NCBI GenBank assembly: GCA_951406725.2
Contig: OX597825.1
Span: 8,680,001-8,744,000, forward strand
Length of the DNA stretch: 64,000 nucleotides
Direction: 5' to 3'
Origin: Octopus vulgaris
Taxonomy: Eukaryota
Under the pieces are notes generated by a model that worked only from the letters and a program-made list of their open reading frames with translations, did not search any database and was not told the DNA's origin. The position numbers and the translations under genes are program-made. Position 1 is the stretch's first letter. The number at the start of each line of letters is the position of its first letter. This document shows, piece by piece, positions 3,296-61,993 of this stretch.

Positions 3296-3770
3296 CGAGA
3301 AAGAAGCAACAAGAATGGATAAGTTTTTAGTACAATCGTTTCATACAAAGACAGGCTTTATTAAAAGTTGCAAAAATTGCAGCATATAAACGTGTCCCGT
3401 ACTCATCAGCTAAAATACATGTGAGTTCTCTAGACATCTTAGTGGTTGAGGCTATACTCATGAAGTAAAGTATATTATCTACATTACTTCATGAGTATAG
3501 CCACAACCACTAAGATGTCTAGAGAACTCACATGTATTTTAGCTGATGAGTACGGGACACGTTTATATGCTGCAATTTTTGCAACTTTTAATAAAGCCTG
3601 TCTTTGTATGAAACGATTGTACTAAAAACTTATCCATTCTTGTTGCTTCTTTCTCGCTTATAATCACCCCACATTACTGTATGGTTAAAACCGTATTGTT
3701 TTTTGGTGCATCTAAGTTAGGTACCATATTCAAGTAAATTCATTAAAATTGACTTGAATCTTTATTGCTT
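3296..3770. mobile_element. Fold-back PLE-like non-autonomous element (family A) in (TA)n
   Basis: Arms 3296-3468 and 3484-3656 are reverse complements; extra 3' tail to ~3770; hammerhead in each arm. Confidence 0.85.
3537..3627 (+). ncRNA. Type I hammerhead ribozyme (mirror copy 3325-3415 on minus strand)
   Basis: ttttag / CTGATGA(3543) / long stem II gtac...gtat / GAAA(3610) / cgattg / TA / ctaaaa. Confidence 0.85.
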
Positions 3771-4792
3771 TATATATATATATATATATATATATATATT
3801 TATATATATATATATGTATATGTGTGTGTGTGTGTGTGTGTGTGTGTATGTTTTGTTGTCCCTTTCTTGTAATACCTAACTGTCTGGATGTTTTGCGTTC
3901 TTGTCCCATTTTGTATATATATATATATATATATACATATATGTATATAGCGGCGTACGTACTCTTTGGTCTCTTATATGTAAGTGTATCTGTATCTAAA
4001 TCTTGTACGACTCTATTCTCTTATTCTTTTATTCTTTCCTTCTTCTATCAGCCCTTTCACGCTTATATCGTTCATTCCACTCTTCGTTCTTTCATCCCCC
4101 TTCTCTCACATTTCATTGCCTTCTCTTCTTGCTCCCTCCTCTATTCACTTCACTGTGTCCCTGTCAATTTTTTCTTGCCCCTCCTTATTTATTCTGTCCC
4201 TCTGCCTCTACCGCTCTATCTTCTCCCCCACGTGACCGCTGTTCGGCCAAGCCTGATCTTTCCGTCTTGGTGGGGCCGTTTTCCGTGCAACATATATATA
4301 TTCTTCCCTGTACCTGTGAATATTGTATCCTTAATTTAATTCGTCCTTAATCATTATTGTGTTCCTGACGAAGAACGAATGCAGGTTGTCAAGCGTGCAC
4401 TAAAGGTTACAAGTTCTGTACGGAGGTGACAACATTGGCAACGACAATGTACACATATAAAAATATGAAAATGTGTAAAGGAAACCAGTGTGGAACAAAA
4501 ACTATGTAGTAGAGTCAAGAATCAGTAACCACGTTAGCATGTGTTTGTCTTCATTCCCACAAATATATTAAAACACTTGAATTTTCTGTACGGCTGGATT
4601 GTAAGCATAATGTAATACAGTAAATAGTAGCTAGTTTGCGTATCAAGATCTACGTGCTGTACGCGTGGTTTTGCAGCTTAAATTTCATATTAGAGGAAAA
4701 AGCAAATATCTATTCAGAAGAACAGAAAATGTCTGAAGCCGAGGACGCCGGGATTTTTTTCCTAGCTGTGTATGGAGGGATGAAAAATGTCT

Positions 4793-4998
4793 GTGTCCTT
4801 GTGTCTGTGTCCCTCCCCCATCACCCATCAGTGGTGGTGAATTTACGCCCAGTAACTTAGCGGTGAGGCAAAAGTGACTGATGGAATAAGTACTATGTTT
4901 TCAAAAAGCTTTGGGGTCGATTTGTTCGATTACAACTCTCTCCAGGTGGTGCTCCAACATGGCCGCAGTCATATGACTGAAAGAATTACAGAAAATAG
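4793..4998 (+). mobile_element. SINE family 1, 3' portion
   Basis: gtaacttagcggt...aataagtact...ggggtcgatttg...gtgctccaacatggccgcagtc matches the tails of full copies at 25404 and 60054. Confidence 0.75.
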
Positions 4999-5004
4999 AA
5001 TAAT

Positions 5005-5250
5005 ACATATATATATATATATATATATATATATATATATATATATATATATCATTCTATTTTCTTTACTTCTTTGAATATATATATATATATATATATA
5101 TATATATATATATATATATATATATATATATATATATATATACATACATACATATTTCGAAAGATAGATGAATAGATAAATAGATAGATAGATAGATAGA
5201 TAGATAGATAGATAGATAGATAGATAGATAGATAGATAGATAGATAGAAA
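5005..5250. repeat. (TA)n and (GATA)n microsatellites
   Basis: Direct reading. Confidence 0.95.
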
Positions 5251-6180
5251 TATAGTTATATTTATATATATATGATTAGCTAAGAAACATTGTAAATATG
5301 GAAATATAATTTTCAGTGTATGTGCGTGTGGGGAAATATATTTAATAAAAATATTTCATAACATTTATGTGAGTAATTATATGACAAATTGTATTTAATA
5401 TTAGTAACATAAGCATATTAAAAAAAACATATGCACATAAAAATGTGTGCTTAATGATGCAAATGAGTCCTGAGTGGGAGAAATAATAATGCATGAAATT
5501 GCATAATAATTATATAAAATATCATCCATATGCAATTATAGAAGGATATAAAACGATCTAATTCAGATGTGTAAGGATATAAATATAGTTATATATTACT
5601 ATGAACGACAGGAATATTATTAATACTAAAAGGCAATCTTTATATCCAACCTAACGTGGATGTATCAGTGTAGCACCGAATACTGCGTCAGTCACCTTGA
5701 GAAAGGTTTTCTCTCTGCAAATAACTCATGATTCGGTGCACTAATAATATTTCCCTGCTAACTTGGTTATGATGTCGAAATTTTGTATTAATGCCGGTTC
5801 TATCGCTAATATTTATATTTTGATAAGCCTGCTGTCTATTTGCGACATTAGTGCTTGAACAGGCACTGAAATTTTATATATCTCTAGTAGAGATATTTGA
5901 GTGGAATGCGGCTACCATACGCCTGCAACTGATGAAACGTGGTACGTCGAAATAACACGATCTAACATTTCTTGGGCCGATTCCCGCCGCCAACGCTGTG
6001 TACTTGTATGTAACCTGCGTCCATATAAAAGGTCTTCTCAAGGTAAATAACGCAATATCAAGCCCTTTAACAGCGCATACACGTTAACTCGGATATAAAG
6101 AGTGCTTTCTACATATATGTGTACATATATTATTGTAAGTGCATATGCGTATATTATGTGTGCATTTGCGCACCGAAATA

Positions 6181-60053: not shown

Positions 60054-60475
60054 GTAGGTGTGGCTGTGTGGGAAGTAGCTTACTTACCAACCACATGGTT
60101 CCGGGTTCAGCCCCACTGCGTGGCAACTTGGACGATTGTCTTCTATTATAGCTTTAGGCCGACCAAAGCCTTGTGAGTGAATTTGGTAGACGGAAACTGA
60201 AAGAAGACTGTCGTATATATATATATATATATATGTATGTGTCTGTGTGTGTGTGTGTGTGTGTGTATTTCTGTGTCTGCATTTGTCCCCCCAACATTGC
60301 TTGACCACCGATATCGGTGTATTACGTCCCCGTAACTTACCGGTTCGGCAAAAGAGACCGATAGAATAAGTACTAGGCTTAGAAACAATACGTTCTGGGG
60401 TCGATTTACTCGATTAAAGGCGGTGCTCCAGCATGGTCGCAGTCAAATGAATGACTGAAACAAGTAAAAGAGAGA
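60054..60475 (+). mobile_element. SINE family 1
   Basis: Full head, microsatellite and tail. Confidence 0.9.
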
Positions 60476-61144
60476 GTAAAGTGTATGAATACTCTTTTAG
60501 AGAGCACAATTCCGATTTACCAAGTGCCTAGTAGTTGCAACATCTGGTACCAACATGTTTGGGGCTTACAGTTGAAAATAACGATGCTGTGTCAATTAGC
60601 GGGTTATATAATTGACAAAGTGTTTTCGTAAATTTTGCAACTTCCCACTTTATAATTAAACCGTTGATTCTAGCATCCAGTAGAGTTTCCGTCCTATTTT
60701 ATGTTATTAGTGGTTAATATGTTGATATCCACTTATACTATCTCTTGCGTATCACATTCCTACAACCGCAAGAACACTCACGCTAAGCCATGTTTAAATT
60801 GCAGTCGTGTTTGTCATAAATCAAAACCTACCGTCTTAGAAGTATTCTATGTCATGCATAGATGTAATTTTAGATATATGATACGCTAAAGCGTAGCACG
60901 TAATAATTATGGGTATTAGTGTGTTTAATGCGTATTCTAAGATTAAACAACACTAAAAAATGTCTAACGTTCTGTAAGAAAGAAGCACTTAATTTTCTTT
61001 AAACCACTCTTAATGGCATCATTCAAAATTGCTCCTTGTTGGTATACATATGCCGATATGTCTGCATCGTTTTCACGGCACTTGATCTAAAAACCAGCAA
61101 AAACTAATCGAAGCCATATGGTCCTTGGGACGTCCAAACCTGAT

Positions 61145-61352
61145 TTATTATTATTTTCATTATTATTATTATTATCATCATCATCATCATCATTATTATT
61201 ATTATTATTATTATTATTATTATTATTATTATTATTATTATTATTATTATTATTATTATTATTATTATTATTATTATTATTATCATTATTATTATTATTA
61301 TCATCATCATTATCATTATTATTATTATTATTATTATTATTATTATTATTAT
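61145..61352. repeat. (TTA)n/(TCA)n microsatellite
   Basis: Direct reading. Confidence 0.95.
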
Positions 61353-61494
61353 TTGCTAAACTTTACGTGCAATAAGTTTATACACTTTCGACAATAAACA
61401 ATATATAATTTTGTTAAAATTACTCCTATTGTTTAATTATGAAAATACAGTAAGATTATTTATATATATATATATATATATATATATATATATA

Positions 61495-61993
61495 TAAAAT
61501 ATTATTGGTGAATTGAAGAAATGGAGCTGAACGAAGATTGAACAGAAATCGTTTTATTTCATTCTACACGTGTTTCGAAAGGCACAATTTACCAAAATCC
61601 GATTGAATAATGAGACCATATTGTGTCTTTCTCTTCAGGAAGAAATAGGAAATCCGTTGGAAAACGGATTTGTTTTTTCCAACGGATTTCCTATTTCTTC
61701 CTGAAGAGAAAGACACAATATGGTCTCATTATTCAATCGGATTTTGGTAAATTGTGCCTTTCGAAACACGTGTAGAATGAAATAAAACGATTTCTGTTCA
61801 ATCTTCGTTCAGCTCCATTTCTTCAATTCACCAATAATATTTTAATTTCAATTATCCGCACCAACGCACGGTTGCAACACCATATGGTTGTACCTCCAAC
61901 CGTGCTGTTTTCTGCTGTGATTTTTGCTACCAAGGTATCGGTTAAACTTTTGATTAATCTGCTACAAGATTATTCATCTTTCTATTTCACATA
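61495..61993. mobile_element. Fold-back PLE-like element (family C relative) in (TA)n
   Basis: Arms 61495-61664 and 61675-61844 appear to be exact reverse complements; tail to ~61993 shares caaccgtg..ttttctg..gctacc.aggtatcggttaa with the 12352 and 21301 elements. Confidence 0.9.
61692..61784 (+). ncRNA. Type I hammerhead ribozyme, canonical core (mirror copy 61555-61647 on minus strand)
   Basis: tatttc-ttc / CTGAAGA(61701) / gaaagacacaat...attgtgcctttc / GAAA(61763) / cacgtg / TA / gaa-t-gaaata. Confidence 0.9.

What the first reader, a model, noticed from the sequence alone, without database searches (positions are those of the whole stretch)
3296..61993. Seven fold-back, hammerhead-bearing insertions from several families share one architecture and (TA)n targeting
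Seen at 3296, 11675, 18472, 21301, 43296, 51777 and 61495. Each has inverted arms arranged head-to-head, with ribozyme sense pointing outward (left arm minus, right arm plus). One arm carries an extra ~60-170-nt 3' tail, and the ends abut (TA)n (one end only for 21301). Primary sequences fall into about five groups, yet the hammerhead fold is kept with different paired bases. Established: inverted 5'-truncated pLTR copies plus a tail are the integration signature of Penelope-like elements. Inference: about one such insertion per 9 kb implies a very large, diverse genomic population of self-cleaving RNAs mobilised in trans; no PLE ORF is visible in the window.
Basis: partly seen in the sequence, partly recalled or inferred. 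Interest (0 to 1): 0.85.

Follow-up and report, generated by a model that had tools for sequence, protein, structure and literature searches.

The report
Penelope retrotransposon fold-backs and hammerhead retrozymes
These seven palindromic insertions are mostly broken-off ends of a known kind of jumping gene that carries a self-cutting RNA, but they follow a strict one-long-end, one-short-end rule that small non-coding ribozyme repeats also obey, which hints at how both get pasted into the genome.

Summary
All seven fold-backs are real and are Penelope-like element (PLE) insertions. Four (3296, 21301, 51777, 61495) are 5'-truncated ends of four protein-coding families related to the Hydra clade, whose ORFs I found elsewhere in the genome, so they need no trans mobilisation. 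Two (11675, 43296) are non-coding tandem units of 535 and 591 nt that work like retrozymes. One (18472) is old and decayed. Inversion, tail, (TA)n targeting, hammerheads and an octopus Hydra family are already published. Only 4 of 7 pass my hammerhead descriptor, and a 200-kb sample gives about one hammerhead insertion per 29 kb.

Three points were not found in my literature searches:
(1) Each young family has two fixed 3' ends, and fold-backs join one long and one short end (10 of 10 in a set not chosen by its ends; no long+long pair seen), favouring two priming events.
(2) Non-coding retrozyme arrays carry this same signature, genomic support for PLE-driven mobilisation.
(3) Two families lack the CxCX5C linker thought to aid (TA)n targeting, yet still hit (TA)n.

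Cleavage and expression are untested.

The parts
3296..3475 (-). El1 left arm: short-end copy of the 3' end of PLE family B, hammerhead at 3409-3331
3477..3770 (+). El1 right arm: long-end copy of family B, hammerhead 3543-3621, tail about 3657-3770, then (TA)n
   Evidence: family B endonuclease ORF upstream in L129/L130
11675..11971 (-). El2 left arm: long-end copy of the 535-nt non-coding unit R2; starts 7 nt before the cleavage site, so only half a hammerhead; tail about 11675-11800
11972..12294 (+). El2 right arm: short-end copy of R2 with an intact hammerhead at 12064-12132
   Evidence: (fold z -2.8)
18473..18634 (-). El3 left arm: old family F3, short-helix hammerhead with helix I disrupted
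18673..18892 (+). El3 right arm: helix II decayed, tail about 18835-18892
21302..21669 (-). El4 left arm: long-end copy of PLE family D, hammerhead core at 21577, tail about 21302-21451
   Evidence: ORF in L135/L133/L140
21663..22220 (+). El4 right arm: short-end copy of family D reaching further 5' (the apparent spacer is 3' UTR); core broken at 22115
22225..22688 (+). extra fragment of a D-related family with a decayed hammerhead, abutting El4 and ending at (TA)n; accounts for the missing (TA)n at El4's right end
43297..45436 (-). El5 left arm: about 3.6 tandem copies of the 591-nt non-coding unit R5, four variant-core hammerheads, short end
45434..47068 (+). El5 right arm: about 2.7 copies of R5, three hammerheads (45554, 46144, 46735), long end with internal deletions
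   Evidence: (fold z -3.25)
51778..52009 (-). El6 left arm: copy of PLE family E with tail 51778-51852 (about 20 nt short of the family's long end); core at 51971
   Evidence: endonuclease ORF in L169/L188
52017..52169 (+). El6 right arm: short-end copy of family E; core at 52055
61495..61664 (-). El7 left arm: short-end copy of PLE family A, hammerhead 61638-61565
61669..61993 (+). El7 right arm: long-end copy of family A, hammerhead 61701-61774, tail 61845-61993; over 99% identical to the pLTR of a full element with an 899-aa open frame

Best explanation
The seven sites are insertion products of endonuclease-bearing PLE machinery in an AT-rich 2.8-Gb animal genome (octopus-like; inference). 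SHOWN: El1, El4, El6 and El7 are the 3' ends (3' UTR plus hammerhead-bearing pLTR) of four ORF-bearing families related to the Hydra clade. El2 and El5 are non-coding tandem units with one hammerhead each. Every young family has two fixed 3' ends about 65-155 nt apart, both next to (TA)n, and a fold-back joins one long-end and one short-end arm. ESTABLISHED (PMC11167929): a PLE protein cuts both strands of AT-rich DNA and starts reverse transcription at two internal RNA sites, whose spacing is the tail; hammerhead cleavage is not needed for insertion in vitro. INFERRED (about 0.55): the protein, probably a dimer, breaks a (TA)n tract; one DNA end primes at the distal site and the other at the proximal site of the same or a sister RNA; both cDNAs stop early and join at their truncated ends, giving a head-to-head palindrome with outward-pointing hammerheads and a tail on exactly one arm. 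INFERRED (about 0.75): the non-coding tandem units borrow this machinery in trans. The hammerheads have an 8-nt palindromic helix III and would cut, if at all, as dimers or with protein help; many genomic copies are dead.
For: Full element with pLTR, 899-aa frame, 3' UTR and pLTR in L036. ORFs upstream of families B, D and E. 412 homologs at E<=0.001, the best 120 at 34-42% identity; their consensus carries RWK, DKT, CxCX5C, CxxC and CxH. The endonuclease model's best matches are GIY-YIG nucleases (T4 EndoII Z 7.7, rmsd 3.6, 110 aligned; I-TevI Z 7.3, rmsd 2.4, 82 aligned). Two discrete ends in six families and in family C. Long+short pairs: 10 of 10 for C, picked by endonuclease coordinates; 11 of 13 for R5; 18 of 20 for R2; no long+long among 53 pairs of A, B, D, E. 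Either arm can reach further 5' (L038, L002, L200, L209), which excludes simple self-copying of one cDNA. The arms of one insertion differ 2-3 times less than arms of different insertions (A 0.43 against 1.21%, B 0.55 against 1.16%, C 0.20 against 0.43%, D 1.7 against 5.2%).
Against: No autonomous partner sharing a 3' region with R2, R5 or F3 was found among five families compared, so trans mobilisation rests on the shared signature alone. Reverse transcriptase was not retrieved for families B and E (endonuclease part only). The fold match is middling (model pLDDT 57.8; Z under 8), and Pfam gave no hit for the family A protein. Arm similarity also fits two RNAs from one source locus, or later gene conversion. 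The unit-register test on tandem arrays was inconclusive. Of the unbiased R5/R2 pairs, 4 of 33 do not fit a clean long+short pattern. El3's relatives show (TA)n only at some ends. No activity or expression data.
Confidence: 0.85

Rival explanations
1. One reading: all seven are non-autonomous self-cleaving RNAs spread in trans.
For: No PLE ORF in the window; R2 and R5 are non-coding (longest ATG frame 46 and 49 aa).
Against: Four of seven continue upstream into PLE ORFs at other loci, with staggered 5' truncations. Several motifs are broken, and there is no significant 5'-end enrichment at the cleavage site.
Confidence: 0.08
2. Snap-back or processing model: one cDNA folds back and copies itself, or both arms start long and the endonuclease trims one to the short end while resolving the intermediate.
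For: PMC8557442 attributes the tail to endonuclease-mediated resolution. Arms share variants (37 shared non-majority sites against 26 differences in family A). Short ends lie in AT-rich sequence.
Against: Self-copying cannot give a short-end arm that reaches further 5' than the long-end arm (L038: 3500 against 1786 nt from the long end). PMC11167929 maps both ends to reverse transcription start sites in vitro. Trimming of one of two long cDNAs is not excluded by my data.
Confidence: 0.25
3. R2 and R5 arrays are minisatellites grown locally from old pLTRs by unequal crossover, not retrotransposed units.
For: bioRxiv 10.64898/2026.07.22.740005 discusses local amplification from a pLTR; one R5 array has about ten units.
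Against: 21 R5 and 28 R2 separate insertions on many chromosomes at 97-100% identity end at the same two positions next to (TA)n, with variable 5' ends and inversions.
Confidence: 0.1
4. The palindromes are MITE-like DNA transposons or assembly artefacts at microsatellites.
For: Inverted repeats and TA flanks resemble MITEs (recalled); (TA)n tracts are error-prone in assembly.
Against: The arms meet in the centre with variable junctions, have unequal fixed ends, differ by point changes, and continue into RT/endonuclease ORFs.
Confidence: 0.02

Closest known systems
Hydra clade of C-terminal EN+ Penelope-like elements, including Hydra-1_Obim of Octopus bimaculoides (PMC8557442 and its supplement)
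   Same: Single RT plus C-terminal GIY-YIG ORF, DKT motif, no CCHH, C-terminal CxxC and CxH, pLTR hammerhead, (TA)n target, 5'-truncated inverted copies (noted for Penelope-13_HM), tail at one end only.
   Different: Tails are about 65-155 nt against the 30-40 bp described for PLEs. Helix II spans 50-61 nt against about 9-23 nt in the listed Hydra motifs. Families A and D lack the CxCX5C linker; A has RWL for RWK and is 3.7 kb long. By eye, none of the window's motifs matches the Hydra-1_oBim hammerhead.
Poseidon element of Anolis carolinensis studied in vitro (PMC11167929)
   Same: Two reverse transcription start sites define the tail; both target strands are cut and extended; AT-rich target; hammerhead dispensable for insertion.
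   Different: Different clade. The parts I read do not state a rule that inverted insertions pair one long and one short end.
Metazoan non-LTR retrozymes (PMC7229834; bioRxiv 10.64898/2026.07.22.740005)
   Same: Non-coding tandem units, each with a type I hammerhead, proposed to be moved by PLEs.
   Different: R2 and R5 units are 535 and 591 nt against 150-450 bp. Here the arrays show PLE-type inversion, two fixed ends and (TA)n targeting, which the parts read do not describe ('inverted' has 0 occurrences in PMC7229834).
Minimal hammerheads of PLEs (PMC4209133)
   Same: Type I motif with a palindromic helix III region; opposite-strand pairs 100-700 bp apart were already seen in Schistosoma; high sequence variety with a kept fold.
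   Different: Much longer helix II in six of the seven elements; El3 fits the published short form.
L1 twin priming (recalled, not read)
   Same: Two target ends prime reverse transcription on the RNA and give an inversion.
   Different: In L1 the two segments do not overlap; here both arms copy the same 3' region from two fixed sites.

Membership tests
EN+ Penelope-like elements | single ORF with RT and GIY-YIG endonuclease | tested here: met
   899-aa frame in L036; homologs; GIY-YIG folds rank first. For B and E only the endonuclease part was seen.
EN+ Penelope-like elements | pLTR from partial tandem, 5' truncation, inverted copies | tested here: met
   L036 has a 331-nt direct repeat on both sides of the ORF; inversions
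EN+ Penelope-like elements | tail at one end | tested here: met
   two fixed ends per family, longer than the published 30-40 bp
Hydra clade | DKT motif; CCHH absent; C-terminal CxxC and CxH | tested here: met
   DKT in family A. Alignment A1 shows CxxC in A, B, D and E, and CxH in A, B, E and one of two D copies.
Hydra clade | CxCX5C linker, families B and E (El1, El6) | tested here: met
Hydra clade | CxCX5C linker, families A and D (El7, El4) | tested here: not met
   Deleted in L036, L135 and L140; 97 of 98 homologs with a C-terminal CxxCxxE have it by pattern, and the one miss shows it by eye. A and D are therefore filed as Hydra-related variants, not strict members.
Hydra clade | RWK motif | tested here: inconclusive
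   RWL in A; 82 of 120 homologs have K and 17 have R; N-terminus not seen for B and E
Hydra clade | (TA)n insertion | tested here: met
   long ends at (TA)n in 29 of 30 A, 29 of 30 B and 12 of 14 D loci; background about 1% under a slightly stricter test
Hydra clade | placement in an RT phylogeny with named Hydra elements | not tested
   compared by eye with the supplement alignment only
Non-LTR retrozymes (El2, El5) | tandem non-coding units each with a type I hammerhead | tested here: met
Non-LTR retrozymes (El2, El5) | unit of about 150-450 bp | tested here: not met
   535 and 591 nt; filed as retrozyme-like. The 359-nt array in L147 meets it.
Non-LTR retrozymes (El2, El5) | self-cleavage and circular RNA | not testable with these tools
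   only contigs of runs guessed to be RNA were available
Type I hammerhead ribozyme | core plus helices I-III with covariation | tested here: met
   met by 4 of 7 elements, the others decayed or imperfect
Type I hammerhead ribozyme | catalytic activity | not testable with these tools
   PMC3088659 notes that U4C lowers activity considerably in vitro

The most novel reading that the evidence does not exclude
PLE integration is a paired-priming reaction in which the two ends of a broken (TA)n tract always use different fixed start sites on the RNA. Non-coding hammerhead retrozymes, including a classical 359-nt type, are inserted by this same reaction. (TA)n targeting does not need the cysteine linker, since two recently amplified families lack it.
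Probability: 0.5. Interest if true: 0.72.

Novelty: new variant of a known kind. Interest (0 to 1): 0.5.

Why it matters
The PLE insertion mechanism, the mobiliser of animal retrozymes and the basis of microsatellite targeting are all named as open in the papers read. This genome holds several very young families (copies 97-100% identical) that make each question countable. The long+short rule limits the possible integration intermediates. The shared signature ties retrozyme arrays to PLE enzymes by their insertion ends rather than by co-occurrence. The linker-less families are natural deletion mutants for the targeting hypothesis. The basic architecture is already known.

Tried and rejected
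Rfam scan: only hairpin and microsatellite noise among the 150 listed of 157 matches. Pfam: no hit for the family A or C proteins, and a below-cutoff GIY-YIG hit for a neighbouring different PLE. PDB sequence search with the 60-protein profile: 0 hits. Single-sequence fold failed (pLDDT 34). Isolated hammerheads are not unusually stable: 3 of 8 had z below -2.5. Enrichment of 5' ends at the cleavage site was not significant. Unit-register test for a linear multimer against a circle template was inconclusive: in El5 the second units of both arms are identical but the outer units differ at 8 columns. Search for an autonomous partner of R2, R5, R3 or F3 by 3'-region alignment: only A-D, A-D3 and D-D3 scored; R2 against R5 z 2.7. 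No PLE-like ORF was seen in the shown output for 10 loci of El3's family, part of which was cut. RNA: no RNA holder listed; contigs of four guessed-RNA runs cover the R5 unit, which says nothing on expression, ends or circles. Earlier findings of this scan: none returned. The random sample stopped at 200 kb on contigs C1-C8, so density is rough. R-scape was not available.
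Full report
1. Observation. The window is G000:C12:8680001-8744000 of a 2.8-Gb, 227-contig genome, 34% GC and rich in (TA)n. Genome size, and a homolog labelled Argonauta hians, suggest an octopus-like animal; this is inference. Inverted arms exist at all seven named sites, with (TA)n flanks and one-sided tails as described. 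I call them El1-El7 in order. A type I hammerhead descriptor (core, helix II, palindromic helix III, helix I) gave 10 hits against 0.07 in 60 shuffles; a looser one gave 12 against 0.025 in 40 shuffles. All hits lie in El1, El2, El5 and El7 and point outward. El4's left motif has a core but imperfect helices and its right core is broken; both El6 motifs lack the G10.1-C11.1 pair that the family representative has; both El3 motifs are decayed relative to their relatives; El2's left arm starts 7 nt before the cleavage site. El5 is an inverted array of 591-nt units with variant cores (U4C in 6 of 7).

2. Covariation. A loose pattern over all loci gave 20 clusters of long-helix-II motifs. I aligned 16 and left out 4 that looked like chance (L192, L082, two in L008). 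Across the 16, 90.2% of cells pair, and 0 of 500 shuffles reach this; slid controls give 29-48%. Helix II and the palindrome were part of the selection pattern, but helix I was not; it is 86.5% paired with two-sided changes at 6 of 6 pairs. The rows are related and four were dropped, so this supports a kept fold without giving a probability.

3. What the elements are. Genome searches gave 1,325-3,437 first-look candidates per element, 40 scored each. The best copies are 99-100% identical for El7, 98-99% for El1 and El2, 97-99% for El5 units, 92-98% for El4, 95-97% for El6 and only 78-85% for El3. El7 is the 3' end of family A: L036 holds a 331-nt pLTR, an 899-aa open frame, a 3' UTR and a second pLTR. 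El1 continues into an endonuclease ORF (family B), El4 into an RT-endonuclease ORF related to A (family D), and El6 into an endonuclease ORF related to B (family E). The family A RT has 412 homologs at E<=0.001 among 8,000 candidates scored, whose consensus shows the motifs that PMC8557442 gives for the Hydra clade. A model of the family A endonuclease (pLDDT 57.8) ranks GIY-YIG nucleases first, at middling Z. El2 and El5 are different: their units (R2, 535 nt; R5, 591 nt) run head to tail and encode at most 46 and 49 aa. El3's family showed no PLE-like ORF in the displayed output for 10 loci. No PLE coding sequence lies in the window.

4. Two fixed ends and a pairing rule. Measured from the cleavage site, 3' ends cluster at two positions: A +70/+226, B +41/+163, D +53/+203, E +41/about +136, R5 +201-210/+293-314, R2 about +190/+293, and family C, found beside one locus, +43/+110; values include a few TA letters. 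Long ends abut (TA)n in 29 of 30 A, 29 of 30 B and 12 of 14 D loci, while about 1% of sampled positions lie just upstream of a (TA)n run under a slightly stricter test. Searches for A, B, D and E selected copies with the tail, so they test only the partner arm: no long+long pair in 53 (A 19, B 20 after removing 2 refetched loci, of which 4 share flanks and may be one event, D 7, E 7); two partners had intermediate ends. Sets not chosen by their ends: family C, 10 of 10 diverging pairs picked from endonuclease coordinates are long+short (0.001 under independent 50:50 choice); R5, 11 of 13 fold-backs among 21 separate insertions, the other two having one odd end; R2, 18 of 20 among 28, the other two having an arm that ends near the ribozyme (tallied by eye; R2 short ends are fuzzy in AT-rich sequence). 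Single-direction insertions use either end (R5 4 long and 4 short; R2 3 long and 5 short).

5. Mechanism. Either arm may reach further 5'. A single cDNA copying itself cannot produce a short-end arm longer than its long-end partner, so two copying events on RNA are needed (inference). Arms of one insertion are 2-3 times more alike than arms of different insertions, and many junctions overlap by 1-13 nt. PMC11167929 showed for a Poseidon element that both target strands are cut and extended, that two internal start sites define the tail, that the protein is predicted to dimerise, and that hammerhead mutants still insert. The simplest reading is paired priming: each end of the broken (TA)n tract uses a different start site and the truncated cDNAs join. 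Whether one RNA molecule or two from one source locus is used is not resolved, and trimming of one of two long cDNAs is not excluded. Outward hammerhead orientation follows from this geometry. 5' ends are not significantly enriched at the cleavage site, which fits uncleaved RNA as template.

6. Retrozymes. R2 and R5 show the same inversions, two ends and (TA)n flanks as the coding families. So does a 359-nt array with a short canonical hammerhead met in the random sample (L147: 2 motifs on minus, 5 on plus, (TA)n at both ends, right end about 47 nt longer). PMC7229834 proposed PLEs as mobilisers, and bioRxiv 10.64898/2026.07.22.740005 added co-occurrence and pLTR homology in Xenopus; insertion-end evidence was not in the parts I read. 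Against: I found no autonomous family sharing their 3' regions among five compared.

7. Targeting. Families A and D lack the CxCX5C linker that 97 of 98 full-length homologs carry by pattern, yet they insert at (TA)n. PMC8557442 reports the hypothesis that the linker mediates this bias, while noting its absence from Chlamys. If A moves in cis, as its open frame and near-identical copies suggest, the linker is dispensable; help from linker-bearing family C (19,178 first-look candidates) cannot be excluded.

8. Density. In 20 stretches of 10 kb at round coordinates on C1-C8, the descriptor gave 14 hits in 7 insertions (shuffled mean 0.6), 2 with motifs on both arms; BLAST added R5 fragments in L153. 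The window has 4 and 3 in 64 kb. Extrapolation gives about 1e5 insertions (Poisson range about 4e4-2e5, my arithmetic), so the window is on the rich side.

9. What is known. PMC8557442 (passages, section 11, supplement searches and part 2 of 59) describes inverted 5'-truncated copies, a 30-40 bp tail often at one end only, and Hydra-clade (TA)n targeting with hammerheads, and lists Hydra-1_Obim. PMC4209133 (parts 1-2 of 4) describes PLE minimal hammerheads and opposite-strand pairs. Also seen: PMC11167929 parts 1-2 of 4; the 2026 preprint parts 1 and 3 of 5, supplements not seen; PMC7229834, PMC3088659 and PMC6962438 as passages. L1 twin priming is recalled. Seven library searches did not show the long+short rule, inverted retrozyme arrays or linker-less Hydra relatives; subscription papers and Repbase were not searchable, so they may be in print.

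10. Verdict. The finding is real and largely explained as Hydra-related PLE debris plus retrozyme-like passengers. It is a new variant of a known kind, with three testable additions. Interest 0.5.

Noticed in passing
L197-L209 (e.g. G000:C3:139222301-139226300): Family C: a very abundant, very young Hydra-type PLE (717-aa frame, intact linker, many copies with identical scores) whose short-helix hammerhead has a U4C core.
   Followed up: partly
L147:2097-4780 (G000:C1, 20.0 Mb): Inverted array of a 359-nt unit with a short canonical hammerhead, (TA)n at both ends, one long and one short end; a shorter related motif occurs at the start of L157.
   Followed up: partly
window 22225-22688 and 12352-12560: Two further PLE 3' fragments beside El4 and El2; PLE copies often pile up at the same (TA)n tracts (also L001, L029, L066, L112, L114, L116).
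   Followed up: partly
L036:49-666, L023:1-591, L131:2186-2680, L142:1164-1703: Endonuclease fragments of other PLE types with a CxxxxCxxC motif upstream of the GIY-YIG region (Neptune- or Naiad-like by recalled motif).
   Followed up: no
L036 ORF, residues about 490-750; L129, L130, L135: Families A, B and D carry long low-complexity N/S-rich insertions between RT and endonuclease, and long 3' UTRs (0.6-1.7 kb), unusual for a clade described as under 3 kb.
   Followed up: no
L176:2343-3232: 5' part of another Hydra-type ORF (RWR, DKT) next to a family E insertion.
   Followed up: no
window 30277-30842, 36778-37145, 24647-24917: Two-copy tandem repeats of 292, 185 and 141 nt, not examined.
   Followed up: no
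window 266-885: GC-richer stretch with overlapping open frames of about 200 aa on both strands, possibly an exon or another repeat.
   Followed up: no
window 29664-30083 and 28605-28964: Short frames that look like LINE and DNA-transposon remnants (recalled resemblance).
   Followed up: no
L216 and L219 (last 1 kb), L045: Other common short hammerhead-like motifs with variant cores lie in neighbouring repeats and were not counted by my descriptor.
   Followed up: no
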